A DNA stretch of 64,000 nucleotides. It comes from a virus. Shown piece by piece: positions 24,177-51,176 of the stretch. Every line of letters begins with the position of its first letter. Position 1 is the stretch's first letter. The position numbers and the translations under genes are program-made. The stretch is from positions 32,001 to 96,000 of the IMG/VR virus record IMGVR_UViG_3300030117_007745; one strand, written 5' to 3'. Under the pieces are notes generated by a model. The model saw nothing but the letters and a program-made list of their open reading frames with translations, made no database searches and was not told the origin of the DNA.

Positions 24177-24392
24177 CTATACCTCTTCAGCTACTTCTTC
24201 GCTGCCCATCTTTACAAGTGGAGGATTTTTTACGTAAAGTTGTGCCTCATCACCTTCTTTATCGGCTGCGGGTACAAATTCAAAACCCTTAATTACGGGA
24301 ACAATATCGCTTTGCTCCAAAATGCTCTTTTGTAGTGCCATCATAACGGCCCCCACTGCTTGATCTGAAAGTTTCATATATTCTCCTACCAT
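24177..24392 (-). CDS. Hypothetical protein (true start probably MKLSDQ at 24377)
   Basis: Fills the gap in the operon. GGAG RBS precedes the internal ATG. Confidence 0.7.
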   Translation of the reverse strand: MVGEYMKLSDQAVGAVMMALQKSILEQSDIVPVIKGFEFVPAADKEGDEAQLYVKNPPLVKMGSEEVAEEV

Positions 24393-25342
24393 TTAAAATT
24401 ATCTATGTAGAATTTTACCATCTTTTCTACTTCTTCGTTAAATATTTTTTCAGGTTTCCAGCCCAAAGATCGCAACTTGTCATCATTTAGGGCATACCTT
24501 ACGTCTTGTCCAAGCCTTTTGTAGCCAAGATCTACATATTGTTGCCAATTCTCGTCTGTTCCATGGTAAGCTTTGATGACTTTTCTAACAGTTTCCCTGT
24601 TTTCTTGCTCAAATCCGCCGGCGATGTTGTAAATTTCGTTTGTTTTTCCACTATTTATGATAGTTACAACTGCATTTGCCGTATCTTCAGCATGTAACCA
24701 GTTTCTTATAGGCTTACCCTCATCATGAAGTCTAATTTTTTTACCTCTCATTAAAAGTTTGACTGTTAAAGGGACCAGTTTCTCTGGATACTGGTAAGAG
24801 CCATAGTTGTTTGTAGGTCGAAGGATAATATACTCTAATCCATAAGTTCTTGCCCAAGATTTTACAAGCATATCTGCGGCCGCTTTGGAGGCAGAGTATG
24901 GATTACTAGGGTTTAGGGGGTCAGTTTCTATGTGTTCTCCGTCTGCTATGTCACCATACACTTCATCAGTACTAAATTGCAAAAATACGGGCCTTTCTAC
25001 AACATTATTTGGCTTTTTTTTGATTAATTCTAATAAATTGTGCACTCCATCGACATTTGTTCTTAAAAATTCTTTACTATCAAGAATACTATTGCCAACA
25101 TGAGTTTCTGCCGCAACATTAATGACATAATCGCAATCTGGTAAGCTCTTTAGCTCTGTTATATCCTCATCAATAAAAGTAAAGTTATCTTTATAATGAG
25201 TTTTGAATTTTCTGATCAAACTAGGGTTTGATGCGTATGTTTTGTTGTCTATACCATACACTTTCCAGCCTTGACCTAAGCACTTATTCGTCACATGAGA
25301 CCCAATAAACCCCAAACAACCTGTTATAACAACTAATTTCAT
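24386..25342 (-). CDS. rfbB: dTDP-glucose 4,6-dehydratase (RmlB-like)
   Basis: GCLGFIG, AAETHV, STDEVYG, PYSASKAA, NNYG.YQYPEKL and G.D.RYA motifs. Confidence 0.88.
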   Translation of the reverse strand: MKLVVITGCLGFIGSHVTNKCLGQGWKVYGIDNKTYASNPSLIRKFKTHYKDNFTFIDEDITELKSLPDCDYVINVAAETHVGNSILDSKEFLRTNVDGVHNLLELIKKKPNNVVERPVFLQFSTDEVYGDIADGEHIETDPLNPSNPYSASKAAADMLVKSWARTYGLEYIILRPTNNYGSYQYPEKLVPLTVKLLMRGKKIRLHDEGKPIRNWLHAEDTANAVVTIINSGKTNEIYNIAGGFEQENRETVRKVIKAYHGTDENWQQYVDLGYKRLGQDVRYALNDDKLRSLGWKPEKIFNEEVEKMVKFYIDNFKW

Positions 25343-25720
25343 CTAATCTCCCTTGTGAATCCTGTGACTGTCACTATCGAAGTGTTGTGTTGAAAATTCA
25401 AACAATTCGGTGTCCTCTAAAGCTATCATTTGGTGCCTTAAACCTCTGTAAACATGGAAGTTATCGCCTCTATTCAAGATTAACTCCTTTGCAGACTCAA
25501 TATCATCTTCGTCAGAGTACTTAACCAACATTTTACCTGACTGAATATAAAATACCTCGTCTTTTAACTCATGATAATGCCATGAACACCTCTTGCCCTT
25601 GACAAAATAGAGCAATTTTCCACAATATTCTTCATTATTTACGATCCACTTTTCAAATCCCCAACCTTTAGGGACAAATTTCATTGGTAAAGAAGTGTCC
25701 ATCACTAATCCCCTTATCAT
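25343..25720 (-). CDS. Cupin-fold sugar isomerase-like protein
   Basis: VPKGWG.E, SWHYH..KDE.F and H...A......E.ST cupin motifs. The start may be 25702 or 25684. Confidence 0.8.
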   Translation of the reverse strand: MIRGLVMDTSLPMKFVPKGWGFEKWIVNNEEYCGKLLYFVKGKRCSWHYHELKDEVFYIQSGKMLVKYSDEDDIESAKELILNRGDNFHVYRGLRHQMIALEDTELFEFSTQHFDSDSHRIHKGD

Positions 25721-26003
25721 CTATGTATAGGTCTCCGCTTGGTTTACCTAAAATTAACTGGTGGTATTTAACTTTCCAAGAATTTAATTGATTTTCCGTC
25801 AAAGCGTAAAATTCTTGTATCGCTAAAGTAGCATTATTGTTATACCTGCCCATCCCTCGGGCCGTAAAGAAAACTATTTCATTTCCTTCATCATAAAGCC
25901 TATTTATAAATTCTATTCTGTGATCATAGGGCTCTGACTTGTCATAATCTTCATTATCTTTTTTGTAACAAATTGTTCCGTCAATGTCAAAAACATATCT
26001 CAT
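25668..26003 (-). CDS. Minimal HAD-family phosphatase (capsule-biosynthesis type)
   Basis: DIDGT motif I, FTARG, KP..D.YIDDK motifs III/IV. Confidence 0.85.
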   Translation of the reverse strand: MRYVFDIDGTICYKKDNEDYDKSEPYDHRIEFINRLYDEGNEIVFFTARGMGRYNNNATLAIQEFYALTENQLNSWKVKYHQLILGKPSGDLYIDDKGISDGHFFTNEICP

Positions 26004-26380
26004 AACTTACTCAACGTGCTAGTAGTGGAATAACCATCAATATAATTAAATATTTTAACATCACACAAGTCGCTACCAACAACTGTGCTGACTGTATAAT
26101 CACCACCTTTAACTATTATATCAGGTTTTGTCTGTTTTATTAAGTTATAAGGAGTGTCTTCGTCAAATATATGCACTTCGTCAACATACTTACAAGAAAG
26201 AAGCATAAATATTCTGTCTTCCTGAGAAAAGACTGGCCTAGATGGGCCCTTTAACTCCCTGACACTAGTGTCGCTATTTAGGCCAACGATAACATAGCCT
26301 AGAGATTTGCAATACCTAAGCAGTTCAAAGTGCCCTCGATGCAATACATCAAAGCACCCATTGGTAAAAATCTTCTTCAT
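26000..26380 (-). CDS. rfaE2: Heptose-1-phosphate nucleotidyltransferase (HldE domain II / RfaE2-like)
   Basis: FTNGCFDVLHRGH, VGLNSD.SV..LKG..RP, KGGDY and GYSTT. Confidence 0.92.
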   Translation of the reverse strand: MKKIFTNGCFDVLHRGHFELLRYCKSLGYVIVGLNSDTSVRELKGPSRPVFSQEDRIFMLLSCKYVDEVHIFDEDTPYNLIKQTKPDIIVKGGDYTVSTVVGSDLCDVKIFNYIDGYSTTSTLSKL

Positions 26381-27117
26381 ACAATGCTAACCCCTCGTTT
26401 TTGAACAACTTTTGTTGCACACTGATTAGCAAATTTAATTGCATCAACTATGTCTTTTGTCCGGACATACTCAAAGCACAGGCCGGATACAAATGTGTCT
26501 CCTGCTCCTGATGTATCCTTCACTTCAACTGTTGGGACTGAATAGATATTGTTTTGAAACTCTGAACCGTATTGCCCTTTTGTTAAAATCACTTTTTGCT
26601 TAAGGGTGTCTGTAAAATTATCTCGATTGTTCTCGTATTCTTTATGATTTAGCTTAATAAAATTAAATCCTTCGGCCCAATCAGATAAAAGTCTTTTTGT
26701 GTCAATAAAAGTTGTGTGATGCATTCCAGAGATAGCATGCAATACTTCTTCCGACATATAACCTTTGTTATAATCAGACACAATCACAGCATCATAATCT
26801 TCAAAGTTTATTTCCTGTAGCTGATCCAGTGTCAGGGTTCCGTAAGAATTGTCGTTTTCATCAACACGCAGGAACATGTGATTTGTTCTGTTGTCCATGT
26901 ACCTTGTTTTTGTTATTGAGTCGTTGGTAGCGTTGGTAATTAAATCTACTCTTGCACCCAAAGATAGTAGGTTTCTTTCAACGTTCTTGGCCATACCCCA
27001 TGTTTCAACTGTATTTATCAGCTTAAAGACAGGGACAGGTGCATCAGGGCACAGACGGCTACAATCTCCGTAATGAAATACATCTTTGCAGCTTTCACCA
27101 AAAACTAATATTTTCAT
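26377..27117 (-). CDS. rfaE1: Heptose-7-phosphate kinase (HldE domain I / RfaE1-like, PfkB family)
   Basis: RLCPDAPVPV, TKTRY, VSDYNKG and DTSGAGDTF motifs. Confidence 0.88.
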   Translation of the reverse strand: MKILVFGESCKDVFHYGDCSRLCPDAPVPVFKLINTVETWGMAKNVERNLLSLGARVDLITNATNDSITKTRYMDNRTNHMFLRVDENDNSYGTLTLDQLQEINFEDYDAVIVSDYNKGYMSEEVLHAISGMHHTTFIDTKRLLSDWAEGFNFIKLNHKEYENNRDNFTDTLKQKVILTKGQYGSEFQNNIYSVPTVEVKDTSGAGDTFVSGLCFEYVRTKDIVDAIKFANQCATKVVQKRGVSIV

Positions 27118-28121
27118 CGAGTTAAGAACCTTCTACCAGTTTTTATTTGTTGTCTCCAATATTCTAACAGATCTTTCATTGTTTTGTCAAATGAAATTTC
27201 AGGCTCCCACCCAGTATGCTCTTTAAACTTTGATGTATCAGGCACCTGAAGATCTGCATCAATTGGTCGAAGGCGATCAGGGTCGATCTCTACCTTAATA
27301 TCTTTGACGGTAGATAATGATATAAGATGTTCTAACATTTCTCGAACAGTGCAGGTGTAAGACCCTCCAATGTTATAGTACTCTCCAGCTTGTGGATTCT
27401 CTGTAACCAATAAATAATAAGCTCGCACCGCATCTCTAACATCAGACCAAGTTCTAAGTGAATCTAAGTTTCCAACCTTAATAACAGGAGGTATCAAGCC
27501 TTCCTCAATCATTGCAATTTGCTTTGCAAATGTTGACTCTGCAAAAACATCTCCTCGTCTTGGCCCTGTGTGAGTAAACATTCTGGTTGTCATCACTGTC
27601 ATACCATATGCTTCTCCATAGAAGCGGCCAACCAAATCTGTGCCGACTTTGGAAATTGCATACGGAGAAGCTGGATGAAACGTTATGTCTTCGTGAATTG
27701 GCAAAAACTCTTTTGGCACTCTTCCAAACACTTCTGAAGATGCACAAACATGCACCACTGGATTTTGTCCGAGAACTCTGATTGCTTCTAAAACCTTTGC
27801 AGTACCAAGCACATTTGTCTCTAGCGTTTCTAGCGGAGCAGAAAAGCTTGTCTTTGGATAACTTTGTGCTGCCAAGTGAAATACATAATCAGGCTTTGAT
27901 TCCTCAAAGCATGTTATCAGCGAGGCCAAATCATTAATGTCAGCATTTAAAAGATGTACCCTTTCTTTATTGTTGATTAAGGGCATAAGGTGCTCAATGT
28001 TATCCATCTTATCATTCCATCGAACTAATCCATAAACTTCCCAGTCCGTATTCTCAAGTAGATAATCGGCTAGATGAGAGCCAACCATACCAGTGATTCC
28101 AGTGATTACTGCTTTTTTCAT
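27114..28121 (-). CDS. GDP-sugar 4,6-dehydratase, DmhA/DdahA (GDP-manno-heptose dehydratase)-like
   Basis: RW...MDNI.HL, HLAAQSYPKTSF, HVCASSEV, ASPY.ISK, RMFTHTGPRRGDVF.ESTFAKQIA and LRPIDAD match the 6-deoxyheptose dehydratase subfamily as recalled. Confidence 0.8.
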   Translation of the reverse strand: MKKAVITGITGMVGSHLADYLLENTDWEVYGLVRWNDKMDNIEHLMPLINNKERVHLLNADINDLASLITCFEESKPDYVFHLAAQSYPKTSFSAPLETLETNVLGTAKVLEAIRVLGQNPVVHVCASSEVFGRVPKEFLPIHEDITFHPASPYAISKVGTDLVGRFYGEAYGMTVMTTRMFTHTGPRRGDVFAESTFAKQIAMIEEGLIPPVIKVGNLDSLRTWSDVRDAVRAYYLLVTENPQAGEYYNIGGSYTCTVREMLEHLISLSTVKDIKVEIDPDRLRPIDADLQVPDTSKFKEHTGWEPEISFDKTMKDLLEYWRQQIKTGRRFLTR

Positions 28122-28906
28122 TTGTTTTTCTCCGCGTCATAACGATCTAAAAGGCGGCGTTGTGCAGTGAATCCGGGCCAGAATGGCTCTTTTTCTTTAA
28201 TATACACTGAGTATATTGTTCTACGCCATCGTGTTGGATGCATATTCTTGTCAGCTTTATGAAGTAATAAGCCATTAACTACAAGAATATCTCCTGCATT
28301 GTACTTTAATTGTTTTGTTGGTAGCTCATCAGAAAGTATATTTCCATCAGAATCTCTATAATCACTTAACTTCTTAGCATCTCCAATGGGCGCAACCTGA
28401 ACTATTCGACCCTCTTCGTCACGAGAAAAATTTGGGCTTGGATCAAAAGACAGCATTCCAAACTTATGACTTTTTGGTACGACAATTAAAGATCCGTTTG
28501 TCTCATCTGCGTCGTCTACAATTATAGCCAAGTTTATGTAATTGTTCCCGTTTGGGGCCATTGGGGCAAAGTTATCTTGATGCCATATAGAACCATACTC
28601 CAATGGATTACTCGGCTTACAGAAAAAAGTAGTCGAGGCTATTGGAATTGCGCGGCCTTTACATATTGCATCACCAATATCACACATCTTCTTTCCCCTG
28701 TGTGCCTGTTTGATGCTTTTATGAAAATGCATATCTAAGCGAACCGTAAAGTGTCCATTAGCAGCGTCGTCCAAGTCTTTTCTGATGATGTCTACTTCTT
28801 CGCTGTTCCACACCTGTGGGATTAGCAAGTACCCATTTTCCTCATAAAAATCGAGCTGATCTGGACTTAGTTCATACGAGTCCATATGTGTCCTTAATTC
28901 ACTCAC
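28118..28906 (-). CDS. PhyH-family Fe(II)/2-oxoglutarate dioxygenase
   Basis: Y.ENGY, WHQD, NG.L.VVP.SH, G(D)...LLH and R motifs. Confidence 0.88.
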   Translation of the reverse strand: MSELRTHMDSYELSPDQLDFYEENGYLLIPQVWNSEEVDIIRKDLDDAANGHFTVRLDMHFHKSIKQAHRGKKMCDIGDAICKGRAIPIASTTFFCKPSNPLEYGSIWHQDNFAPMAPNGNNYINLAIIVDDADETNGSLIVVPKSHKFGMLSFDPSPNFSRDEEGRIVQVAPIGDAKKLSDYRDSDGNILSDELPTKQLKYNAGDILVVNGLLLHKADKNMHPTRWRRTIYSVYIKEKEPFWPGFTAQRRLLDRYDAEKNK

Positions 28907-29852
28907 TACAGTTCTCCTGATACCACTTGATTGTTTTTTCCAAACCTCTCCCTAAAGTATGGGCTGGCTTCCAATCAAGCTCTTTCTCTGCTTTTGTGCA
29001 ATCTAAAAATAAAGATGTTGGCACAGTCGGCTTTGTTAAATCGTGCCTAATCGCAAGATCTCTACCAGAGCATTGTATCACTTTCTCAACCAAATTTTTA
29101 ATTTTTATTCCCTCTCCTAAGCCCACATTGTAAAGCTCATAGTTGCCTTCTTGCTTCGATAGAGCAGCCTCTATAAAAGAGATAAAATCTTCTACGTACA
29201 GCAAATCTCTTGCTTCTTCGCCTGTTCCCCATACATTAACAAGCCCATCCTGAGATGTCATTACCTTAGTGATTGTTGCCCCTGTAACATGAGACTTCTC
29301 CAAATCGTACTTATCGTAGGGGCCATATAGATTAGAATGCCTGATCACTGTGTGCTTTGTTTTTCCAAAGCCAGCATAAAATTTACACATGTTCTCCAAG
29401 TATACCTTTGTGTGGCCTGCTCCGTAATAAAAAGGCAGAATATCATCTGATGGGTTGTAGTCACTTTCCTTTAAGGCTTTTTCTGATTTTTGGTACATTA
29501 TTGTACAACTAGGGAAAATGAAATGCTCTATACCTTGCTCAAATGCCTCTCGTAAAAGATATGAATTCATTACAACATTGTCTGTTACGTGGATGTATGG
29601 CTTAGAAACAATATCTTTGGCTCCAGTTGTTGTGGCAGCAAACTGCATAACAATATCCACGTCTTTAAGAATATTTGATACCTGCTTTGGATCGCGCAGA
29701 TCACACTGCACCCATTCGACATCTGCATATTCAGATAACGCTGGTCTTTTGAAGTGAGTGGCCCTAATTTTATATTTGTTAGTCTTAGAATAAAAATCTA
29801 ATAAGTTTTTTCCTATAAACCCTGTTGCTCCACAAATCAAAATTCTTTTCAT
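28899..29852 (-). CDS. Extended SDR NDP-sugar epimerase/reductase (GDP-fucose synthase-like)
   Basis: GATGFIG, PSCT.MY, NLYGPYD, SHV and VWGTG...RD.LYVED. Confidence 0.85.
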   Translation of the reverse strand: MKRILICGATGFIGKNLLDFYSKTNKYKIRATHFKRPALSEYADVEWVQCDLRDPKQVSNILKDVDIVMQFAATTTGAKDIVSKPYIHVTDNVVMNSYLLREAFEQGIEHFIFPSCTIMYQKSEKALKESDYNPSDDILPFYYGAGHTKVYLENMCKFYAGFGKTKHTVIRHSNLYGPYDKYDLEKSHVTGATITKVMTSQDGLVNVWGTGEEARDLLYVEDFISFIEAALSKQEGNYELYNVGLGEGIKIKNLVEKVIQCSGRDLAIRHDLTKPTVPTSLFLDCTKAEKELDWKPAHTLGRGLEKTIKWYQENCSE

Positions 29853-30430
29853 TTCTTTCTCCCGTCCAGTATTAGCTCTTCTTTCTTTTCTATGAAAGCA
29901 TTGTAGATCTTATCAACGACCATATCAATGTCCATAGCATTAACTCTATCTGGAGTTGTCTTTATGTTCGTGGGATACACATCTAATACCTGAATATTGT
30001 TTTCTTTTTTGAAACTATTTGAAAACCCTCGAAGGCCCCACTTAGTAGCAGAATACAGAGTTCTGGGTGTCTTTACTTCTAATCCTACCATCGAGTTTAT
30101 ATTTATAACCCCTTTAAGATTTTTCAATAATCTCTTGGTTAAAAGAACTGGGGCCTTTAAATTAACTTCTATCATGGAATTAATTAAATCATCTTCATAT
30201 TCTTCCAAAGGAATGTTCGGACAGACAATCGCAGCGTTATTAACCAACACATTTACCTGTAGTCTGTTGGCCTCTTGAGATAGTTTCTTAACCTCATCTG
30301 CATTTGTCAGGTCGTAATGTTTCCTTCCTTCGTGCCGAAAAACAAAATGGCCCTCGTTTTCAAATTTATTAGCTAAATGAAAACCAAGGCCAGAAGAGCA
30401 TCCAGTTATTAAAATTCTAAACTTATTCAA
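29849..30430 (-). CDS. Short classical SDR oxidoreductase
   Basis: TGCSSGLG, VNNA and YSATK. TTG start. Confidence 0.85.
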   Translation of the reverse strand: MNKFRILITGCSSGLGFHLANKFENEGHFVFRHEGRKHYDLTNADEVKKLSQEANRLQVNVLVNNAAIVCPNIPLEEYEDDLINSMIEVNLKAPVLLTKRLLKNLKGVININSMVGLEVKTPRTLYSATKWGLRGFSNSFKKENNIQVLDVYPTNIKTTPDRVNAMDIDMVVDKIYNAFIEKKEELILDGRKK

Positions 30431-34253: not shown

Positions 34254-34259
34254 GTAACC

Positions 34260-35311: not shown

Positions 35312-35314
35312 AAA

Positions 35315-35854: not shown

Positions 35855-35863
35855 TGTTTCTCC

Positions 35864-42331: not shown

Positions 42332-42644
42332 AAAAGTCCTTATCGCTTACACCTTTGTCATCGATGTAATAATCTGCAACAAGTTTTACGCCCACTCTTA
42401 ATTGATGAAATTTTAATCCCCATGAAATCAATTGATTGTGAGTTTCCATATACCAATTGTTTTTAGAACTGGATCCCCTAGCAGTTTCAATGTAAATTGT
42501 ATTACCTTTTTCAAACAAATCATTTACTTTTGCTATTCTATCCCTGTAAGGTTCTGCACCAAAGTAATCCCAGTCTCCATTTTCTTTCTTTAAGGTGTTG
42601 CAGAGAGTATGGTCTAGATCAAATACGTATGTTTTATTCTTCAT
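42318..42644 (-). CDS. Minimal HAD-family phosphatase (paralog of 25668..26003)
   Basis: DLDHT, TARG and K..ADYYIDDK. Confidence 0.82.
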   Translation of the reverse strand: MKNKTYVFDLDHTLCNTLKKENGDWDYFGAEPYRDRIAKVNDLFEKGNTIYIETARGSSSKNNWYMETHNQLISWGLKFHQLRVGVKLVADYYIDDKGVSDKDFFEDG

Positions 42645-42647
42645 GTA

Positions 42648-44893: not shown

Positions 44894-45276
44894 TATTCTT
44901 TCTCCATTATATAATATTTCTTTTTAAATCCGCAAGATTCAAATAATCTCATACTTGCATTATTTTCTAATTTAACTTTAGCATATGCACTAGGGTGCAT
45001 GTCCATCAATTTCTTGATCATAAATTTTCCAACTCCACGGCCTTGAAAATCCGGATGTGTTGCTACTCTGATATCTTCATCGATAACTCCCACGTATCCT
45101 GCTGGTTGGTCATCTATTAGGCAAACATAGAAGAATAGGCCGTATCTAAGCATATACTTTTCGTGACAATCTTTTCTAATTGCTTCTTGTTGAATAAACC
45201 CTCTTTTAACATCTGGGTGATTGCGAAGATTTCTAATGAATTCCCAATATTTTGGCTTGTTTTGTACTAATTCCAT
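44893..45276 (-). CDS. GNAT-family N-acetyltransferase
   Basis: HPDFQGRGVG acetyl-CoA motif and N.AS..LFE.CGF. Confidence 0.9.
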   Translation of the reverse strand: MELVQNKPKYWEFIRNLRNHPDVKRGFIQQEAIRKDCHEKYMLRYGLFFYVCLIDDQPAGYVGVIDEDIRVATHPDFQGRGVGKFMIKKLMDMHPSAYAKVKLENNASMRLFESCGFKKKYYIMEKE

Positions 45277-46053
45277 TTACACACACGATTTGAATAGGTC
45301 AGGGTGAGGGAAGTTGTTATGATAAGCTCTCAAATAATCCCTCTCTATGCTTAACCCAATATAAGGATGAAGAGTTGTTCCAATGTCGATGTACGTATTT
45401 TTATCACTGTGTTTAAACAACTCATATATAAGAACTTCACTTAAGCTGCTAGCAGACAACAAAAATACATGATCTTCTACATTATTATCGTCTATCCATT
45501 GCTTAATGTCAACAACTAAATGATGATCATTAACAATACAATTTTTTCCAACTTTAAAAGATTTTACAACATCAAACTCAGTATTGGATAAGTCAGCATT
45601 CTCACTACAAACAAAAACAACTTTTTTCTTCTTGAGTTCTGGTACGAAATGGCCAATGAATAAAGGATAGTTTGAATTTACCAAGAGATTAGCAGAAGTG
45701 AGATTATCGTCTACTTGGCCATATAATTCATGCATCCAAGGGGCAAATTCCATAGAGGCGCAGGTACAATCTTTGCAAATGCCGCCAACAAAATAGTTTT
45801 CTTTTTTGTATTTATAGGCTTCGATTAAAATATCTTTTAAGAAGCCATGCTGATTTGGATCGTAGTGTTTATGGTCGTCTGAAGAATATCCAAAATTATA
45901 ATGAGTCTCGCCCATTACAACATGATCATTCGCTAGCTTAAGCTCTTTGTCTTGCATAACACAGATTTCGCCATCAGAAAAACGAGTGTATGCAAAGTGT
46001 TCATTTCTTTTTAATTTACCGAGCAGATTGAAAAAATCTTCTTCAAACTTCAT
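45277..46053 (-). CDS. GT-D-fold (DUF1792-like) putative glycosyltransferase
   Basis: RFSDGE near the N-terminus and IDIG near the C-terminus. Confidence 0.65.
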   Translation of the reverse strand: MKFEEDFFNLLGKLKRNEHFAYTRFSDGEICVMQDKELKLANDHVVMGETHYNFGYSSDDHKHYDPNQHGFLKDILIEAYKYKKENYFVGGICKDCTCASMEFAPWMHELYGQVDDNLTSANLLVNSNYPLFIGHFVPELKKKKVVFVCSENADLSNTEFDVVKSFKVGKNCIVNDHHLVVDIKQWIDDNNVEDHVFLLSASSLSEVLIYELFKHSDKNTYIDIGTTLHPYIGLSIERDYLRAYHNNFPHPDLFKSCV

Positions 46054-47065
46054 CCTTCAGGACCTCATATACTTTTTCAGCAGCGTGTCCGTCGCCATAT
46101 GGGCAGTCGCCTTCAGGTATATGATCTTCATTGAGTTGATTGAAAATACCTTCCAGAGACTTTGGCTCAAAACACATAAAAGCAAAAGTATTGACGCCTT
46201 CAACTCTCTCTGTCTTCTTTCGACAGACAATGCACTTCTTTTTTAGGAATGAAGTTTCTTCTTGTAATCCGCCAGAATCAGTTATAACGAGCCTTGTTTT
46301 CGCCAACAACTTTATAAATTCATTATACTCCATTGGCTCAACAATTTTAAGGTTTTTTAGCAAATGTTTATGCTTTTGAACATTCGGATTTGGGTGAAGA
46401 GGGATGATGAATTCTAGTTCTTTGTTACCTTCTGCTATCTTATTAATTGCCTTGAACCACTCATCCATATTGTGGTGGTTTTCTCTGCGGTGCATTGTTA
46501 CAACAACTTTATTTGTATACTCTGTCTTGGTTCCCAACAGGTTATCTAACACAGTATTTCCGACAACTTCGATTCTTCCCTCTGTATTTTCATTCCTTAA
46601 AAATATTTCAGACAATTCAGTTGGGCACAAATGTACATCAGCTATTCTGGATATAGCTTGGCGATTGAACTCTTCTGGATAGGGCTGATTTTTATCGTAA
46701 GTTCTCAGGCCTGCCTCTAGATGCATCACTTTTATTCTGCGATGAAAAGCAGCAAGGGCAATAGAGAAAGCAGAGGTCGTATCGCCCTGTACTAAAACAG
46801 AAGTTACGCCTTCAAAAATCTCTTCCAAATTCATAACGGAACTGACAATAGAGTCAAGTCGATTTGGCCCGTCTTTGATCTCTAGCTTAATCAAATCCTT
46901 GCCTTCTCCAACTTTTGATAGCAGGTCTGTGTGTTGGCCTGTAAACAAAAGCCGATAAGGAATTTTGCCTTCCATTTGGTCTAGCAAAGGCTTAATCTTA
47001 ATCCATTCTGGTCTTGTGCCAAAGCTTAATAAAATCATACCTTTATACCTCGCACGGTTTTCCAA
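46043..47065 (-). CDS. wecB: UDP-N-acetylglucosamine 2-epimerase (non-hydrolysing); true start probably 47038
   Basis: GTRPE.IK, TGQH, VQGDT, H.EAGLRT, PEE.NR, GNT..D, HRREN, TDSGG.QEE and PYGDG.A. Confidence 0.93.
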   Translation of the reverse strand: MENRARYKGMILLSFGTRPEWIKIKPLLDQMEGKIPYRLLFTGQHTDLLSKVGEGKDLIKLEIKDGPNRLDSIVSSVMNLEEIFEGVTSVLVQGDTTSAFSIALAAFHRRIKVMHLEAGLRTYDKNQPYPEEFNRQAISRIADVHLCPTELSEIFLRNENTEGRIEVVGNTVLDNLLGTKTEYTNKVVVTMHRRENHHNMDEWFKAINKIAEGNKELEFIIPLHPNPNVQKHKHLLKNLKIVEPMEYNEFIKLLAKTRLVITDSGGLQEETSFLKKKCIVCRKKTERVEGVNTFAFMCFEPKSLEGIFNQLNEDHIPEGDCPYGDGHAAEKVYEVLKDEV

Positions 47066-48642
47066 CCGCCTTTAATCGCTGTCTGAACACACACGTCTCT
47101 TTCGTTAAAAAACTGTTGATGTGATACAGCTTGATTTGTTGAGGTCGCTTTCACATCAATTCCCAATTCATTGCCCAACACTGAACCGTGCATCGATTTA
47201 TCTTCGGGAGGATGTGGAGGGCAGTATGTTTGAATGTTGCCATATTTCTGGGCAAGGTAAGAAAACTGAATATCTTCTCCGTTATCCCAAGTTGTTGGCT
47301 TTTCTCTCCACAAATATTGTAGCCATTCTCGTTTAAAAAACCAAGCGTGTCCAACTAAGTCAACCCTTGTTGTTTCACTATTTTGTGTTGGCCATCCGCA
47401 ACGATCATGCTTAACATAAAATTTATCATTCAATGTAACTCCGGCAGATCCCAAGATTCCTTCATTAGTTTTCATTGTTTCTAGGCAGTTATCAAACCAC
47501 TTTTCTCCGGGTATTGTATCGTCGTCAAATATGGCTACATATTCAGTGTCAGCCAACAAAGCAGCGGCAAACCTTCCATAGAACTTCCAGTTGTAATCAT
47601 TGTGGAATATTCTATCAAGGTCAAGTTCTTTAAAATTGAATCCATCATTATCCTCGTGTTGATTTACCCACAGCCAAATCTGTGTTGGTCTAGTTGTCTG
47701 CTTTCTGATTGCATCAATCTGCATTTTAAGATTGTATGGGCGTCGATAAGCATTGAGAATCACAGTGATTGGAGCTTTTTTGGCCTCGGGCCTTTTGTCA
47801 CTTTCTAGAACCTCTATAACTTTGTCAATAACCTTTGTTTTTTGAGACCTTACAAAATCTAGAAGCTCTTGTCCTTTATATTTAGAGAACCATTCCTCGC
47901 TAGCACAGCCGAGGTTATTATTGGTCTTAAGTTTGCAATTTACAATACGAGCTTCAACGGCCAAACGGCAGAAAGTTTCGAGAACCTGAGAAAAGAAAAC
48001 CAACCCGTCGTGTTCTGCAAGTTGTTTGATAAAATTGTTATAATCTAGTGAGACAATAAGGTTGTAAGGAATCTTGTTTTGTTCGCAGAAACTTTTAGCT
48101 TGCTCTGTTCCTTTAATTTGATTAGTGCTGTTCAAAACAGCCATCTTCCCATTCTTCTTGCTGTTCACATGTTGTTGTAGCGTATCGAACTCTTCGTCAG
48201 ACCATAGAGAACATCCCAGATTGATTACATTTGCTTCTCTAATGTTTTTACTGATTACTTCAGCGTGTAATTTAGATTGAGCAAAGACTGCTTTCGCGCT
48301 TCTGTAAAAATCAAGATTAAGCAATCTGTTGGGTGGTACTTTGTAATCTTTGTACGGGGAAGGATCTCTGCCAACAATGTATTTGTGGTCGTGTTCGTAT
48401 ATCACGTAGTCGCAAGACTTAAGTAAGTTGATGCACATGCCGGGAAGCATAACAAAATTAGAAACAATAAAAAGCTTATCTGCGTTATCCTTGATTAGTT
48501 TTTCTGTGACATGTTTTGATTTAACTCGCGCTACTTTATAGCCCCTTTTAACGAGCGAAGAGACGACAATCTCGTCTACGAGTTCACCGCCTCCTCTAAT
48601 CTCTGAAGCATAAAAATCCGCTATGTGAATAATTTGTTTCAT
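47035..48642 (-). CDS. Two-domain glycosyltransferase (N-terminal GT-B-like plus C-terminal GT-A)
   Basis: N-terminal GGGE...ETFCRLAVEA. C-terminal ITVIL..Y.R, IFDDD (DxD) and GEDI.FS. Confidence 0.78.
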   Translation of the reverse strand: MKQIIHIADFYASEIRGGGELVDEIVVSSLVKRGYKVARVKSKHVTEKLIKDNADKLFIVSNFVMLPGMCINLLKSCDYVIYEHDHKYIVGRDPSPYKDYKVPPNRLLNLDFYRSAKAVFAQSKLHAEVISKNIREANVINLGCSLWSDEEFDTLQQHVNSKKNGKMAVLNSTNQIKGTEQAKSFCEQNKIPYNLIVSLDYNNFIKQLAEHDGLVFFSQVLETFCRLAVEARIVNCKLKTNNNLGCASEEWFSKYKGQELLDFVRSQKTKVIDKVIEVLESDKRPEAKKAPITVILNAYRRPYNLKMQIDAIRKQTTRPTQIWLWVNQHEDNDGFNFKELDLDRIFHNDYNWKFYGRFAAALLADTEYVAIFDDDTIPGEKWFDNCLETMKTNEGILGSAGVTLNDKFYVKHDRCGWPTQNSETTRVDLVGHAWFFKREWLQYLWREKPTTWDNGEDIQFSYLAQKYGNIQTYCPPHPPEDKSMHGSVLGNELGIDVKATSTNQAVSHQQFFNERDVCVQTAIKGGWKTVRGIKV

Positions 48643-49904
48643 TAGTCAAAGCTCACAACTGATTCTTCTCTTTCCTGTTCTTCCTGCATAACAGCGTTTG
48701 CAAACATGTCATATTGTTTGCTTGGCTCATATTCTTTCTTAACAAATTTTTTCAAATTTTGTGCGAGCTTTTTGTAATGATCGTAATTGTTATACATGCT
48801 GTTTAAGCTTTTTTGGTAACTATCTTTTTCTGGATATGCCCACATTGAATCTGGTACCAAGACTCCTTGCCATGCAGCCTCCGGCTGAATTGGCCCAATT
48901 GTGTATTCAACTTCACAAAAATGTGGCTTATAAACAGTTGTAGTTTTGCTTTTTGATCCTTTCTTTCTTTGTTTAGTGGGAACATTCAAAAAGTCACATT
49001 GTCCACCCCAATTTATGCTAATAATTGGCAGTCCCGTGTAAGACGCCTCATACATTGGTAGCCCCCATCCTTCCGCATTTGAAATACAAATCAATGACTT
49101 AACTTTTTCATGATCATATAAGCCAACCATTTGCTCATCTGACAGATCTCCATGGAGCAAGTATATTTTACATTTTGCATCTGGTGGGACCAGCGCTTTC
49201 ATCATTGATTCTGCTCGCAACCTATCACTAGTTGCATTGTTTTTTACAAAACCTTTGACAATTAGTCCAACATCTGGGTTGTCTTTGAAATTGTCCACAA
49301 ACCAAGAAATAGTATTGTTCATGTTTTTTCTTGGGCCCCACTGAGACACGGTAAGAAAATTAAAATCGGTTTCTAAATCTAAATCAATTTTTTCTTTTTT
49401 TAGATCTTTTGCTGGATATCCAACAAACTTCACAGGCGTTGTTACAGATGCCTTTCCAACCGGCTGATTTGTATTTCTATCAATCATATCATAGGATGTC
49501 TTAACCATACTTGTTCTTGCATGATTACTAATAACAATGATTCTATCCATTATATTACATTTTTCAATCCACTCTGGTGCGATCTTTGTTGACTCGATGC
49601 CGGCAGTATAGCCTATATTTACTGGAGCTAATTTTTCCCATTCATTAGGTATTGTTATTTGCAAAGACAGGTCAAATTGTCCCTTGCTTTGAATGAAGTG
49701 GAAAGTCTTTTGTATGAGAAAGTCAATATATTTTCTTTCTTCGTTATCTTGAGAGGCCCATCCAGTTTGGCCCCAAGATGTATTAATCAGATAAATATCA
49801 TATCTATGCTCATGTTTTTTTAAAGATCTTAGTGCAAATCTTGACTGCTCTCCATAGCCTGACCTGCTCAATACTGGTCCTCGGAGGATTATTTTTTTTC
49901 TCAT
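48642..49904 (-). CDS. GT4-like glycosyltransferase
   Basis: SGYG, RKN and EGWGLP.YEA...GLP.I...WGG..DFL. Confidence 0.85.
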   Translation of the reverse strand: MRKKIILRGPVLSRSGYGEQSRFALRSLKKHEHRYDIYLINTSWGQTGWASQDNEERKYIDFLIQKTFHFIQSKGQFDLSLQITIPNEWEKLAPVNIGYTAGIESTKIAPEWIEKCNIMDRIIVISNHARTSMVKTSYDMIDRNTNQPVGKASVTTPVKFVGYPAKDLKKEKIDLDLETDFNFLTVSQWGPRKNMNNTISWFVDNFKDNPDVGLIVKGFVKNNATSDRLRAESMMKALVPPDAKCKIYLLHGDLSDEQMVGLYDHEKVKSLICISNAEGWGLPMYEASYTGLPIISINWGGQCDFLNVPTKQRKKGSKSKTTTVYKPHFCEVEYTIGPIQPEAAWQGVLVPDSMWAYPEKDSYQKSLNSMYNNYDHYKKLAQNLKKFVKKEYEPSKQYDMFANAVMQEEQEREESVVSFD

Positions 49905-49913
49905 AAAAATTCC

Positions 49914-51176
49914 TTAGTTTATTTTCTTAAGCGTCCATGGGGAGTAAACTTTTCTATTTTCCCATGACCCATGCTTTTCATGTATTTCATCTAAAAGTTC
50001 TACCCATTTTTCTTGATATTGATCAAAAGAATAGTTGTTGGTAACATGTTCTCTTCCCATATCTCCGAGCTTTTTCAAATCTTCTTTTTTCATGTTATAC
50101 ATTTTTTCACATGCATCCATAAAATCTTTTTCGGAGATCCTATCTTCAAAAATATAAGGAACCTGTTGAGAGCCAATAAGCGCCTTTGAAGCTGGCTCCA
50201 AACCAATACCAAACCAATTTTCTCCATCGGTAACCTGCTCTTGCAATCCTCCGGTCATTGTGGCGATGATGGGTGTACCGCAAGAAAGAGATTCTAGAGT
50301 CGCTAAACCAAACCCCTCTGCATCTGATATATTAATCGTGCAATCGGAAATATTATACATTGCTGATAATTCTTCTGGTCCAACTTTTTCCCTAGATATT
50401 CTTACTTGGCCCTCGTTTGCTCCAAAATGTTGTATTAGGTGATCTAGAGGCTGACCATATGGATCGTTTGGATCAGTGTGCATAATCAAGACACATTTAT
50501 CTTTGCCTACTTTATCACAAAACTTTTTAAACCAATAAACTAAACTTCCGCTTTGTTTTCTTCTAGCATTTCTATTGTTCCAAAAGAAAATAAATTTATC
50601 TTTCAGGCCATGGTGTTCTTTTAAATTATCAATTGCTTCTTGAGACATCGGCTTGAATACTTCTGAGTCTACAGCATGTGGTAGATACAATGATTCAACT
50701 TTGTCTGTAACTTCTTTAACAATTGAATGTGTTACTTTTGAAATACAAGCTACAACATCATTAGATTCATAAAAACCTTTATTGAAAACTGGTGCTGGAT
50801 AATTGTCCCAAACGTGATAATAGATCATAGGAGCATGGGCCCTCACTTCGTTATCAATATCCCATAACCATTCATAAAACCTAGGATCTGTCATAAACCA
50901 AACCATATCAGGCTTTTGAGTTCTCAGGATTGATCTAACCTGATCTTGGGTTCCATAGCCATCTACTGGTAATATAACCCAGTCGTCTCCAAATTTGTCA
51001 ACTTTCATTGGCTCATAATTTTCATGCTTGACTGCACCGCCTAAAGAAAAAACTTGATACCTTCCAGTTTTAAGGAGTGCTTCAATCATGTATCTTGTTT
51101 GGTTTGCTACCCCGGAAGGAGAAAGGGGGTGATCGCTAATGGTAAGTAATTTTATCTTTTTATCTGTCATGGACAA
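49914..51176 (-). CDS. GT4-like glycosyltransferase
   Basis: PSGV, PHAVD...F.P, RN.RRK and EGFGL..LESL.CG.P.IA..TGG..E. Confidence 0.88.
   Translation of the reverse strand: MSMTDKKIKLLTISDHPLSPSGVANQTRYMIEALLKTGRYQVFSLGGAVKHENYEPMKVDKFGDDWVILPVDGYGTQDQVRSILRTQKPDMVWFMTDPRFYEWLWDIDNEVRAHAPMIYYHVWDNYPAPVFNKGFYESNDVVACISKVTHSIVKEVTDKVESLYLPHAVDSEVFKPMSQEAIDNLKEHHGLKDKFIFFWNNRNARRKQSGSLVYWFKKFCDKVGKDKCVLIMHTDPNDPYGQPLDHLIQHFGANEGQVRISREKVGPEELSAMYNISDCTINISDAEGFGLATLESLSCGTPIIATMTGGLQEQVTDGENWFGIGLEPASKALIGSQQVPYIFEDRISEKDFMDACEKMYNMKKEDLKKLGDMGREHVTNNYSFDQYQEKWVELLDEIHEKHGSWENRKVYSPWTLKKIN

What the first reader, a model, noticed from the sequence alone, without database searches (positions are those of the whole stretch)
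24386..51176. 33-gene phage glycan locus with six soluble glycosyltransferases and no export machinery: candidate virion (or DNA) glycosylation system
Seen: ~27 kb of contiguous NDP-sugar synthesis and tailoring genes, and six GT genes carrying seven GT domains (two GT4, a GT-B+GT-A fusion, GT-D-like, GT11, CgeB-like), in a phage next to the tail module. No Wzx, Wzy, ABC transporter, WecA/WbaP-type initiator or multi-TM protein is visible in the locus. Established: bacterial O-antigen and capsule loci need such membrane components, whereas giant viruses and some phages glycosylate their own particles with soluble GTs. Inference: the glycan is built directly on a cytoplasmic acceptor, most plausibly capsid or tail proteins, and would be unusually complex for a phage.
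Basis: partly seen in the sequence, partly recalled or inferred. Interest (0 to 1): 0.88.

Follow-up and report, generated by a model that had tools for sequence, protein, structure and literature searches.

The report
Export-less glycan island in marine phage
A fragment of a large marine phage devotes 27 kb to making unusual sugars and joining them with six soluble glycosyltransferases; many related ocean phages hold such an island at the same place, none carries export genes, and whether the glycan ends up on the virus particle or on the host surface is still open.

Summary
Window 24386-51176 carries 33 gapless minus-strand ORFs. About 25 are NDP-sugar synthesis or tailoring enzymes. Six are glycosyltransferase (GT) genes with seven GT domains: two GT4, a GT-B+GT-A fusion, a GT-D fold, GT11 and a CgeB-like GT. 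None has more than one weak hydrophobic segment.

New here:
- The contig is a fragment, 44% complete by CheckV, of a roughly 190-250 kb myophage. It belongs to a large marine clade.
- The locus sits in a fixed slot between a PD-(D/E)XK nuclease and the late sigma gene. That slot is 3-27 kb in relatives. A GT4 pair is nearly universal, a conserved core follows it, and the middle is hypervariable.
- The same synteny occurs in cultured Flavobacterium phage immuto and Microcystis phage Mel-JY01.
- Five complete relatives lack initiator, flippase, polymerase and ABC-permease families. They also lack the thymidylate-synthase-type and C5-methylase genes needed for glycosylatable DNA bases. Immuto DNA shows no glycosylated nucleoside.
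- The two GT4s are predicted to form a heterodimer.

My preferred reading is cytoplasmic glycosylation of a phage-inherited acceptor, probably virion proteins (about 0.4). Host-surface remodelling through host lipid carriers and exporters is nearly as likely (about 0.35). Similar islands are already described in pelagi- and cyanomyophages. This is a new variant of a known, unexplained kind.

The parts
51167..51940 (-). PD-(D/E)XK nuclease; conserved upstream anchor of the island
   Evidence: Pfam PF12705 E 2e-17. 550 IMG/VR relatives. Homologue sits next to the GT pair in immuto and Mel-JY01.
49914..51176 (-). g73, GT4 glycosyltransferase; first member of the near-universal GT4 pair
   Evidence: Pfam Glycos_transf_1 E 7e-15. 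EX7E motif kept. Present in 117 of 118 related loci. 33% identity in immuto and Mel-JY01, 27% in RM378. Predicted to bind g72.
48642..49904 (-). g72, GT4 glycosyltransferase; second member of the pair
   Evidence: Pfam Glycos_transf_1 E 1.6e-8. EX7E kept. 117 of 118 loci. ipSAE 0.82 with g73 against best control 0.00.
47035..48642 (-). g71, two-domain GT: compact GT-B (1-285) plus GT-A (288-533) with invariant DDD; exostosin-like domain order
   Evidence: AF2 pLDDT 85.8. Foldseek EXT2/KfiA/PmHS2. VIA Z 17-19.7 for each domain. 596 homologues, none given a functional name by any source.
46043..47065 (-). g70, non-hydrolysing UDP-GlcNAc 2-epimerase (WecB type)
   Evidence: TIGR00236 244.7 bits, above cut-off 210. 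Pfam Epimerase_2.
45277..46053 (-). g69, GT-D-fold glycosyltransferase
   Evidence: AF2 pLDDT 91.3. Only significant PDB hits are DUF1792 structures 4phr/4pfx/5v4a. Invariant D26-G27-E28. No Pfam hit.
44893..45276 (-). g68, GNAT N-acetyltransferase
   Evidence: Pfam Acetyltransf_1 E 7e-12. Conserved in 64 loci.
44273..44893 (-). g67, 206-aa 'mini-DegT' PLP-enzyme-like protein; most conserved gene of the core
   Evidence: DegT hits in two pieces with the PLP lysine aligned; internal deletion and no C-terminal domain. Median 76% identity. 40% identity in immuto.
43544..44272 (-). DUF268 protein (tailoring enzyme candidate)
   Evidence: Pfam PF03269 E 1.5e-30.
42648..43547 (-). g65, GT11 (fucosyltransferase-type) glycosyltransferase
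   Evidence: Pfam PF01531 E 9e-17.
42318..42644 (-). small HAD-like phosphatase
   Evidence: Weak Pfam HAD_PNKP E 0.005. Paralogue of 25668-26003.
40988..42331 (-). g63, adenylate-forming ligase (PaaK/F390 synthetase type); candidate amide ligase for a uronic acid
   Evidence: NCBIfam NF045666 E 2.5e-26, PaaK E 2e-22. No Pfam hit.
39949..41001 (-). g62, class I/II PLP enzyme (HisC/CobD-like)
   Evidence: Pfam Aminotran_1_2 E 5e-41. TIGR01141 270 bits, TIGR01140 170 bits.
38726..39952 (-). g61, NDP-sugar 6-dehydrogenase (makes a uronic acid)
   Evidence: TIGR03026 255 bits, above cut-off. Three UDPG_MGDP_dh domains.
37716..38729 (-). extended SDR epimerase/reductase
   Evidence: Pfam Epimerase E 2e-42.
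36740..37774 (-). g59, CgeB-like GT (Glyco_trans_1_2)
   Evidence: Pfam PF13524 E 9e-9, above cut-off.
36327..36749 (-). g58, 140-aa virus-only protein of unknown function under strong purifying selection
   Evidence: 85-87% aa but 71-75% nt identity in phages whose flanking core genes are 50-65% identical. Atlas: viral clusters only.
35864..36340 (-). RmlC-type 3,5-epimerase
   Evidence: Pfam dTDP_sugar_isom E 4e-40. TIGR01221 117 bits.
35315..35854 (-). DJ-1/PfpI family protein (role in the locus unclear)
   Evidence: Pfam E 1e-33.
34649..35311 (-). cupin, mannose-6-P isomerase C-terminal type
   Evidence: Pfam PF01050 E 2e-7.
34260..34649 (-). 129-aa ORF with a DFDGV motif (HAD-like by motif only)
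   Evidence: No family hit. Motif read from the translation.
33420..34253 (-). TPP-dependent E1 alpha-like subunit (two-carbon branch transfer candidate)
   Evidence: Pfam E1_dh E 6e-21. TIGR03182 113 bits.
32542..33447 (-). E1 beta/transketolase-like subunit
   Evidence: Pfam Transket_pyr and Transketolase_C.
31395..32552 (-). full-length DegT-family PLP enzyme (RfbH/PseC-like)
   Evidence: Pfam E 4e-79. RfbH 220 bits, PseC 200 bits, both below cut-off.
30431..31402 (-). extended SDR, GDP-fucose-synthase-like
   Evidence: Pfam Epimerase E 2.5e-48. NF047922 154 bits.
29849..30430 (-). classical short-chain dehydrogenase
   Evidence: Pfam adh_short E 1e-24.
28899..29852 (-). extended SDR epimerase/reductase
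   Evidence: Pfam Epimerase E 1e-36.
28118..28906 (-). PhyH-type Fe(II)/2-oxoglutarate dioxygenase
   Evidence: Pfam PF05721 E 6e-17.
27114..28121 (-). GDP-mannose-4,6-dehydratase-like SDR
   Evidence: Pfam GDP_Man_Dehyd E 1e-77. TIGR01472 184 bits.
26377..27117 (-). HldE domain-I-like heptose-7-phosphate kinase (PfkB)
   Evidence: TIGR02198 E 3.5e-35, below cut-off. Pfam PfkB.
26000..26380 (-). HldE domain-II-like heptose-1-phosphate adenylyltransferase
   Evidence: TIGR02199 E 3e-41, 140.5 bits against cut-off 181.5.
25668..26003 (-). HAD-IIIA phosphatase (GmhB-like role)
   Evidence: TIGR01689 E 4e-11, TIGR01662.
25343..25720 (-). small cupin (sugar epimerase/isomerase candidate)
   Evidence: Pfam Cupin_2 E 9e-9.
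24386..25342 (-). g41, dTDP-glucose-4,6-dehydratase-like SDR; conserved distal end of the island
   Evidence: TIGR01181 305.6 bits against cut-off 365. 76-82% identity at the island end in close relatives.
22953..23636 (-). late sigma factor (gp55-like); conserved downstream anchor
   Evidence: phrog_234 E 4e-6. Found in 32 of 32 long related contigs.

Best explanation
The locus is the expanded form of a clade-wide, phage-autonomous cytoplasmic glycosylation system.

Core and supply: two GT4 enzymes, predicted to work as a heterodimer, start or anchor the glycan. An exostosin-like GT-B+GT-A enzyme and a GT-D enzyme extend it. WecB supplies UDP-ManNAc. An RmlB-like dehydratase, a mini-DegT and a GNAT supply a 4-acetamido-4,6-dideoxyhexose.

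Variable middle: a hypervariable block adds strain-specific sugars. Here these are an ADP-heptose-derived deoxyheptose, a possibly C-branched amino or deoxy sugar, and an amide-linked uronic acid. It also adds two capping GTs (GT11 and CgeB-like).

Acceptor: the phage has no initiator, flippase, polymerase or transporter. The GT pair is conserved in phages of unrelated hosts. The acceptor is therefore most likely a soluble molecule inherited with the phage, most plausibly virion proteins glycosylated before or during assembly.

Status of each step: gene content, folds, conservation and absences are shown. The heterodimer is predicted. The sugar identities and the acceptor are inferred.
For: 1. 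Soluble GT set and NDP-sugar enzymes. No multi-TM protein on the contig.
2. Five CheckV-complete relatives of 192-206 kb lack Bac_transf, Glycos_transf_4, Polysacc_synt, Wzy_C and ABC2_membrane, while the controls ring in 10-14 of 14 genomes. In the complete relative G003 the only ORF with four or more hydrophobic segments lies about 80 kb away. 158 related loci hold no export-like ORF.
3. The GT4 pair is in 117 of 118 related loci. It lies beside the nuclease homologue in Flavobacterium phage immuto and Microcystis phage Mel-JY01, and one member is in Rhodothermus phage RM378. These hosts belong to different phyla, which fits an acceptor that travels with the phage.
4. g73+g72 complex: ipSAE 0.82 against best control 0.00. 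That mark was reached by 58 of 80 solved complexes and 2 of 110 mismatched pairs. Runs agree in at least 95% of contacts and the partner pLDDT is at least 88. The g73 C-terminal tail that forms the interface is conserved.
5. Characterised GT-D enzymes act on protein-linked O-glycans in the cytoplasm (PDB 4pfx/4phr titles; their substrate is from my own knowledge). GT-D-like folds also occur in Mimiviridae multidomain glycosylation proteins.
6. The GT families are acidic to neutral, median pI 5.6-6.4. By my own knowledge this is unlike many lipid-acceptor GT-B enzymes, so it is a soft heuristic.
7. DNA as acceptor is disfavoured (see the rival explanation).
Against: No acceptor was identified.
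- No Ser/Thr-rich repeat protein of the SRRP type is on the contig, and the major capsid gene is not on this fragment.
- GTs that act on lipid-linked intermediates are also soluble or peripheral, so their solubility does not discriminate.
- A two-domain GT resembling KfiA/PmHS2/EXT is typical of polysaccharide polymerases, whose products are exported by host-type ABC systems.
- The published reading of comparable islands is host O-chain modification (PMC7029224, PMC12801897).
- No experiment on any member of this clade addresses virion glycans.
Confidence: 0.4

Rival explanations
1. Host-envelope remodelling. The phage GTs build a new O-antigen, capsule-like or glycolipid glycan on a host-made lipid primer such as Und-PP-GlcNAc. 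Host Wzm/Wzt, Wzx or ligase systems export it. The result is a changed infected-cell surface that blocks superinfection or re-adsorption of progeny.
For: This is the standard reading of hypervariable 'LPS' gene islands in pelagimyophages and cyanomyophages (PMC7029224; PMC12801897). The island content (heptose, deoxyhexoses, uronic acid, ManNAc) is typical of O-antigen and capsule chemistry. The g71 GT-A domain resembles capsule polymerase domains KfiA/PmHS2. Hypervariability mirrors bacterial surface-glycan loci.
Against: No initiator, flippase, polymerase or ABC permease is present in five complete relatives. The nuclease-GT4-GT4 synteny is conserved in phages of Bacteroidota and Cyanobacteria, and a g73 homologue is in a Rhodothermus phage, so the hosts have different envelopes. 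The GT families are acidic. By inference, a wholly new multi-sugar unit would have to be accepted by host polymerases and exporters within one lytic cycle.
Confidence: 0.35
2. DNA hypermodification. The GTs glycosylate hydroxylated or hydroxymethylated pyrimidines in phage DNA to evade restriction.
For: Phage GT-B and GT-A enzymes do this in T-even and other phages, and diverse DNA glycans are known (10.1101/2023.12.21.572611 and 10.1101/2025.06.16.659550). The locus lies beside a nuclease and PhoH rather than inside the structural module.
Against: All known routes need a thymidylate-synthase homologue or a C5-methylase plus TET (abstract and my own knowledge). PF00303 is absent above cut-off, and PF00145 absent altogether, from this contig and from five complete relatives. 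DNA of immuto, which shares the syntenic GT core, gave only dA, dC, dT and fdPreQ1 by LC-UV-MS. Twenty-five or more sugar-tailoring genes far exceed any known DNA glycan.
Confidence: 0.05
3. Another soluble or lipid acceptor: a small-molecule glycoside, a glycolipid, or an exported phage lipoprotein rather than a virion protein.
For: The nearest solved sequence relatives of g73 and the g71 GT-B domain include small-molecule GT4s such as BshA, MshA, TreT and sucrose-phosphate synthase. The contig encodes a lipoprotein-like protein with a Thr-rich stalk.
Against: Six GTs and several rare-sugar pathways that vary between strains suit a surface antigen better than a metabolite (inference). Fold neighbours of GT4 enzymes do not predict their acceptors.
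Confidence: 0.1
4. Artefact: a bacterial polysaccharide locus joined to phage DNA by mis-assembly.
For: Gene content looks bacterial. The record is an incomplete metagenomic contig.
Against: GC is uniform across the junctions. Gene packing is gapless and co-directional. The same nuclease-GT...sigma order occurs in 32 of 32 long related contigs, including 12 with CheckV completeness of 90% or more, and in cultured phages.
Confidence: 0.01

Closest known systems
Hypervariable 'LPS/cell-wall' gene islands of pelagimyophages and cyanomyophages (HTVC008M group, P-SSM2, S-SCSM1, S-SCSM2R)
   Same: These are large marine myophages. Each has a variable island rich in GTs, rfaE-type heptose genes, UDP-sugar dehydrogenase and NDP-sugar epimerases, with 22-24 genes in some phages. 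The function is untested (PMC7029224, PMC12801897).
   Different: This is a different phage lineage (TerL at most 35% identical to cyanophages). The slot is fixed between nuclease and late sigma rather than inside the tail-fibre cluster. A near-universal, predicted heterodimeric GT4 pair is present, plus an exostosin-like GT and a GT-D core. With 33 genes it exceeds the published gene counts I found.
Mycobacteriophage virion glycosylation (Freeman et al. 2023, cited in PMC12619734)
   Same: Phage-encoded soluble GTs act in the cytoplasm on capsid and tail-tube proteins, with no export genes.
   Different: Those systems have 2-4 GT genes and use host NDP-sugars. No sequence relationship was found (g73 matches nine phage records, none of them mycobacteriophages). 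The acceptor here is unknown.
Autonomous glycosylation of giant viruses (Mimivirus fibril clusters, chlorovirus capsid glycans)
   Same: The virus encodes both NDP-sugar pathways (4,6-dehydratase, DegT aminotransferase and N-acetyltransferase, as for viosamine or bacillosamine) and soluble GTs. Gene clusters are clade-specific. GT-D-like and GT4-like folds are shared (PBCV-1 B736L E 1.8e-7; Homavirus and Moumouvirus hits; Mimivirus R699).
   Different: Those are eukaryotic viruses with viral factories. Similarity is at fold level only.
Bacterial cytoplasmic protein or particle glycosylation: SRRP GtfA/GtfB-Gtf3-dGT1 pathway, flagellin glycosylation islands, Bacillus spore-crust sps/cge genes
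   Same: These systems use a two-protein GT-B complex, GT-D and GT-A extenders and a CgeB-type GT. They have large sugar-synthesis islands without flippase or polymerase, and a protein acceptor inside the cell.
   Different: Both GT4s here keep the EX7E motif, so neither looks like the inactive GtfB chaperone. No serine-rich repeat acceptor, flagellin or accessory Sec system is present.
Bacterial O-antigen and capsule loci (Wzx/Wzy- or ABC-dependent), including Campylobacter jejuni capsule heptose and glucuronamide modules
   Same: The NDP-sugar chemistry matches: HldE-like kinase and nucleotidyltransferase, GmhB-like phosphatase, GMD-like dehydratase, cupin epimerases and reductases. A uronic acid dehydrogenase sits with a PLP enzyme, a phosphatase and an ATP-dependent ligase. 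The comparison with C. jejuni is from my own knowledge and was not tested.
   Different: All membrane components are missing (initiating phosphoglycosyltransferase, Wzx, Wzy, ABC permease).

Membership tests
Wzx/Wzy-dependent O-antigen or capsule locus | Initiating phosphoglycosyltransferase (WbaP/Bac_transf or WecA/Glycos_transf_4) | tested here: not met
   No Pfam hit among the 33 ORFs. PF02397 and PF00953 are absent from five complete relatives while controls ring.
Wzx/Wzy-dependent O-antigen or capsule locus | Wzx flippase and Wzy polymerase (10-12 TM proteins) | tested here: not met
   No protein with two or more hydrophobic segments in the locus. PF01943 and PF04932 are absent from five complete relatives.
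ABC-transporter-dependent polysaccharide locus | ABC-2 permease encoded with the GTs | tested here: not met
   PF01061 is absent from five complete relatives. No multi-TM ORF in the islands of 158 related loci. The ATPase subunit was not searched separately.
Phage DNA glycosylation system | Enzyme that makes a hydroxylated or hydroxymethylated pyrimidine (thymidylate-synthase homologue, or C5-methylase plus TET) | tested here: not met
   No PF00303 match above cut-off (one 12.7-bit match in G004) and no PF00145 match, on the contig or in five complete relatives. The TET model rang nowhere in the controls, so that part is inconclusive.
Phage DNA glycosylation system | Glycosylated nucleosides in virion DNA | not testable with these tools
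   Only indirect evidence: immuto, which has the syntenic GT core, shows dA, dC, dT and fdPreQ1 only.
GT-D (DUF1792) glycosyltransferases | GT-D fold | tested here: met
   g69 model (pLDDT 91.3) matches 4phr/4pfx/5v4a at E 2e-7 to 5e-5, TM about 0.55. The next hits are at E above 0.03.
GT-D (DUF1792) glycosyltransferases | N-terminal DXE metal-binding motif | tested here: met
   D26-G27-E28 is invariant in 29 homologues. The motif definition is from my own knowledge of the 4pfx paper.
GT-D (DUF1792) glycosyltransferases | Sequence membership in Pfam PF08759 or PF22882 | tested here: not met
   No hit at E up to 1. There is only an Atlas lead, with 12-18% of members of neighbouring clusters carrying the family.
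Exostosin-type bifunctional GT (GT47 GT-B + GT64 GT-A) | N-terminal GT-B followed by C-terminal GT-A with a DXD motif | tested here: met
   Domains 1-285 and 288-533. Invariant D373-D374-D375. EXT2 is the top Foldseek hit.
Exostosin-type bifunctional GT (GT47 GT-B + GT64 GT-A) | Sequence membership in GT47/GT64 | tested here: inconclusive
   Only Pfam Glycos_transf_2 (E 3e-6) on the C-terminal domain. The GT-B half looks GT4-like by structure. Whole-protein TM to EXT is only 0.26-0.29.
SRRP-type GtfA/GtfB O-GlcNAc transferase complex | Two GT-B proteins forming a heteromer | tested here: met
   Prediction only: ipSAE 0.82 against best control 0.00.
SRRP-type GtfA/GtfB O-GlcNAc transferase complex | One catalytically inactive partner and a serine-rich repeat acceptor | tested here: not met
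   Both proteins keep EX7E. The highest Ser/Thr window is a Thr-rich stalk in a lipoprotein-like ORF, and no SRR protein was found.
ADP-heptose pathway (GmhA-HldE-GmhB) | Kinase, nucleotidyltransferase and phosphatase present | tested here: inconclusive
   TIGR02198, TIGR02199 and TIGR01689 are the best hits, but all fall below the curated cut-offs.
ADP-heptose pathway (GmhA-HldE-GmhB) | GmhA sedoheptulose-7-P isomerase | tested here: not met
   No SIS-domain hit among the 33 ORFs. The host enzyme would be needed.
Virion glycosylation system (mycobacteriophage or giant-virus type) | Glycans demonstrated on capsid, tail or fibril proteins | not testable with these tools
   Needs glycoproteomics or staining of purified particles.

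The most novel reading that the evidence does not exclude
An abundant, globally distributed clade of roughly 200-kb marine myophages coats its own virions with strain-specific complex glycans ("phage glyco-serotypes"). A conserved heterodimeric GT4 initiator and exostosin-like and GT-D extenders assemble them in the cytoplasm. A hypervariable cassette island, about 10% of the genome, diversifies them. This would be the bacterial-virus counterpart of giant-virus fibril glycosylation.
Probability: 0.35. Interest if true: 0.85.

Novelty: new variant of a known kind. Interest (0 to 1): 0.6.

Why it matters
Marine myophages commonly spend 10% or more of their genomes on 'LPS-like' genes, and nobody has shown what these genes glycosylate. 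This clade offers a clean test case:
- The island sits in a fixed slot.
- It has a small conserved GT core with a predicted heterodimer.
- Complete genomes have no export genes and no route to glycosylatable DNA.
- A cultured relative, Flavobacterium phage immuto, has the same core.

If the glycan is on virions, it would affect how we think about phage adsorption, particle stickiness, grazing and decay in the ocean, and antigenic diversity of phages. If it is on the host, it would be an unusually elaborate superinfection-exclusion device. Either answer is obtainable with standard assays.

Tried and rejected
- Megablast of both halves of the window against GenBank phages gave nothing. tblastn of the GT fusion against cultured phages gave nothing.
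- A scan for T4-type late promoter motifs showed no enrichment or positional pattern, so expression timing could not be inferred.
- I looked for bacterial donors of the ligase g63 in GTDB genomes and found no relative.
- I looked for a Ser/Thr-repeat acceptor. None was found on the contig. The capsid gene is off the fragment.
- The idea that g72 is an inactive GtfB-like chaperone is rejected, because both GT4s keep EX7E.
- The idea that shared island genes (g58, g67) reflect recent cassette exchange is rejected. Amino-acid identity of 85-90% goes with only 71-79% nucleotide identity, which indicates purifying selection instead.
- The 317-aa five-TM ORF between nuclease and GT4 in relative L140 is a PHO4-like phosphate-transporter fragment, not a glycan exporter.
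- The TET/JBP family search was uninformative because its controls did not ring.

Full report
**What is there**

The window is bases 32001-96000 of a single 112,654-bp IMG/VR viral record. It has no terminal repeat and CheckV rates it 44% complete. The record is a phage:
- portal (phrog_213, E 9e-75);
- large terminase;
- SbcC-like nuclease and primase;
- a gp6-like baseplate wedge protein at 9478-11310;
- a gp55-like late sigma factor at 22953-23636.

TerL is 46% identical to Flavobacterium phage vB_FspM_immuto, 42% to Microcystis phage Mel-JY01, and about 34% to cyanomyophages. The phage is therefore a distant member of the T4-like world.

From 51176 down to 24386, 33 minus-strand ORFs follow one another. 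There is no gap over 25 bp and no GC discontinuity.

**Gene content**

Pfam and NCBIfam give the following.
- Enzymes of general sugar chemistry:
  - six extended SDR dehydratases, epimerases or reductases, including RmlB-like, GMD-like and Fcl-like forms;
  - RmlC;
  - two cupins;
  - a PhyH dioxygenase;
  - a short-chain dehydrogenase.
- A heptose module: split HldE-like kinase and adenylyltransferase plus a HAD-IIIA phosphatase. These are the best hits but fall below the curated cut-offs, and no GmhA is present.
- A possible branched-sugar module: a full-length DegT enzyme (RfbH/PseC-like) beside a TPP-dependent E1 alpha/beta pair.
- A uronic-acid module:
  - an NDP-sugar 6-dehydrogenase;
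  - a HisC/CobD-like PLP enzyme;
  - a PaaK/F390-type adenylate-forming ligase;
  - a small HAD-like protein.

  By my own knowledge this module mirrors the glucuronamide module of Campylobacter jejuni capsules.
- Further enzymes: WecB (above the equivalog cut-off), a GNAT, a DUF268 protein and DJ-1/PfpI.

**The glycosyltransferases**

Two GT4, GT11 and a CgeB-like Glyco_trans_1_2 are above Pfam thresholds.

The 535-aa protein at 47035-48642 was modelled from 30 homologues (pLDDT 85.8).
- Residues 1-285 form a compact GT-B. The Z scores are 18-19.6 to sucrose-phosphate synthase, BshA, MshA and PimA.
- Residues 288-533 form a GT-A. The Z scores are 17-19.7 to EXTL2, KfiA and the GlcNAc-transferase domain of heparosan synthase 2.
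- Exostosin-2 is the top whole-chain Foldseek hit.
- A DDD motif is invariant.

The 258-aa protein at 45277-46053 has no Pfam hit. Its model (pLDDT 91.3) matches only the three DUF1792/GT-D structures at significant E-values. D26-x-E28 is invariant.

One correction: the 447-aa ORF at 40988-42331 is a ligase, not a GT.

**No membrane machinery**

A hydropathy scan finds no multi-TM protein in the locus or elsewhere on the contig. Because the contig is a fragment, I extended the test to relatives.
- Five relatives of 192-206 kb are rated 100% complete, one with terminal repeats. They lack Bac_transf, Glycos_transf_4, Polysacc_synt, Wzy_C and ABC2_membrane. The same searches ring in 10-14 of 14 control genomes.
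- In the fully fetched relative G003, only one ORF has four or more hydrophobic segments, and it lies about 80 kb from the island.
- Among about 3,500 ORFs in 158 related loci, the only same-strand multi-TM ORF inside the slot is a PHO4-like fragment.

**Comparative anatomy**

The nuclease has 550 relatives and the GT fusion 273 relatives in IMG/VR, on contigs up to 205 kb. A further 596 homologues of the fusion occur in metagenomes, none given a functional name by any source.

The gene order is constant:
- PhoH, two small genes, and the PD-(D/E)XK nuclease;
- GT4 and GT4;
- the GT fusion, WecB, GT-D, GNAT and the mini-DegT;
- the variable block;
- the RmlB-like gene, three small genes, and the late sigma gene.

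Further points on conservation and size:
- Both GT4s occur in 117 of 118 loci with enough flank, and the fusion in 86.
- In 32 long contigs the nuclease-to-sigma interval is 11.4-27.4 kb, typically about 19-20 kb. Here it is 27.5 kb, at the top of the range but not an outlier.
- A few relatives have only about 3-4 kb, which is just the GT4 pair.
- A phage whose sigma factor is 95% identical has a 12-kb version. The middle is therefore truly hypervariable.
- Among close relatives the GT4 pair is more diverged (58-75%) than its neighbours (83-94%).
- The mini-DegT and the 140-aa g58 are under strong purifying selection.

**Cultured relatives**

- Immuto has the nuclease homologue, g73 (33%), g72 (31%), then GT2, aminotransferases, a 214-aa short transaminase (40% to g67), an acetyltransferase, an epimerase and further GTs over about 11 kb.
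- Mel-JY01 has the nuclease, GuaB, g73 (split in two), g72 (29%), and GT-A genes.
- RM378 has a g73 homologue followed by a 425-aa ORF.

The hosts are a Flavobacterium, a cyanobacterium and Rhodothermus.

**Mechanism**

*Shown:* a soluble GT set and sugar-nucleotide pathways; clade-wide conservation of the core; no export, initiation or DNA-hydroxylation genes in complete genomes.

*Predicted:* g73 and g72 bind each other. The ipSAE is 0.82 against a best control of 0.00. That mark was reached by 58 of 80 solved complexes and 2 of 110 mismatched pairs. The runs agree in at least 95% of contacts and the partner pLDDT is at least 88. The C-terminal tail of g73 lies on strand 246-254 of g72, and that tail carries a conserved GSWxxRKxYxxWxLxE pattern. 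Both proteins keep EX7E, so both are probably active.

*Inferred:*
- The pair starts the glycan.
- The fusion and GT-D extend it with ManNAc- or HexNAc-type and 4-acetamido-4,6-dideoxyhexose residues.
- The variable block adds a deoxyheptose, a possibly branched deoxy or amino sugar and an amidated uronic acid.
- GT11 and the CgeB-like GT cap it.

**Acceptor**

DNA is disfavoured. Every known route to glycosylated DNA bases needs a thymidylate-synthase homologue or a methylase plus TET (and my own knowledge). PF00303 gives no match above cut-off and PF00145 gives none at all. Immuto DNA contains only dA, dC, dT and fdPreQ1.

Between virion proteins and host envelope the evidence is indirect.
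- For a phage-inherited soluble acceptor:
  - the pair's synteny is conserved in phages of two host phyla, and g73 in a third;
  - GT-D and CgeB-type enzymes are known from cytoplasmic protein or particle glycosylation;
  - the GT families are acidic;
  - every membrane component is absent.
- For host remodelling:
  - the O-antigen- or capsule-like chemistry;
  - the polymerase-like two-domain GT;
  - hypervariability like that of bacterial surface loci;
  - the published reading of comparable islands.

No Ser/Thr-repeat acceptor was found. I put virion or phage-protein glycosylation at about 0.4, host remodelling at about 0.35, another acceptor at about 0.1 and DNA at about 0.05.

**Novelty**

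Large GT- and LPS-gene islands in marine myophages are published, so the kind is known and still unexplained.

New here:
- a different, very abundant lineage;
- a fixed slot;
- a defined conserved core with a predicted heterodimeric GT4 pair, an exostosin-like GT and a GT-D enzyme;
- a systematic demonstration that complete genomes lack both export genes and a route to glycosylatable DNA.

A cultured relative makes the question directly testable.

Noticed in passing
window 44273-44893 (-): A 206-aa 'mini-DegT'. It aligns to sugar aminotransferases in two pieces, with about 65 residues missing internally and no C-terminal domain. It keeps the PLP lysine and is the most conserved protein of the island (76-92% aa identity). 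Immuto has a 214-aa counterpart. Whether it is still a transaminase is unknown.
   Followed up: partly
window 36327-36749 (-): A 140-aa virus-only protein of unknown function (g58). It is 85-87% identical in phages whose neighbouring core genes are 50-65% identical, yet only 71-75% identical at nucleotide level. This is strong purifying selection on an uncharacterised island protein.
   Followed up: partly
window 48642-51176 (-): Among close relatives the two GT4 genes are markedly more diverged (58-75% aa) than the flanking nuclease, GT fusion and WecB (83-94%). This suggests allele replacement or diversifying selection on the universal pair.
   Followed up: no
window 3-7544 and 11771-20245 (-): Two giant ORFs (3,248 aa in the whole contig, and 2,824 aa) flank the baseplate wedge gene. 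Neither has a PHROG hit. The first has a 3,727-aa counterpart in complete relative G003 and the second has none.
   Followed up: no
G000:C1:14410-16209 (-), outside the window: A 599-aa ORF has an N-terminal Thr-rich stretch, including a run of eight Thr. It has the highest Ser/Thr density on the contig. It could be a mucin-like glycosylation target but is predicted to be exported.
   Followed up: no
L140:6476-7429 (+) (IMGVR_UViG_3300025141_000036): One relative carries a PHO4-like phosphate-transporter fragment (five hydrophobic segments) inserted between the nuclease and the first GT4. It is probably an auxiliary metabolic gene, not glycan export.
   Followed up: partly
window 53062-54369 (-): A PIN-domain plus PhoH fusion (435 aa) heads the co-directional gene run that contains the island. 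It is conserved in 131 related loci.
   Followed up: no
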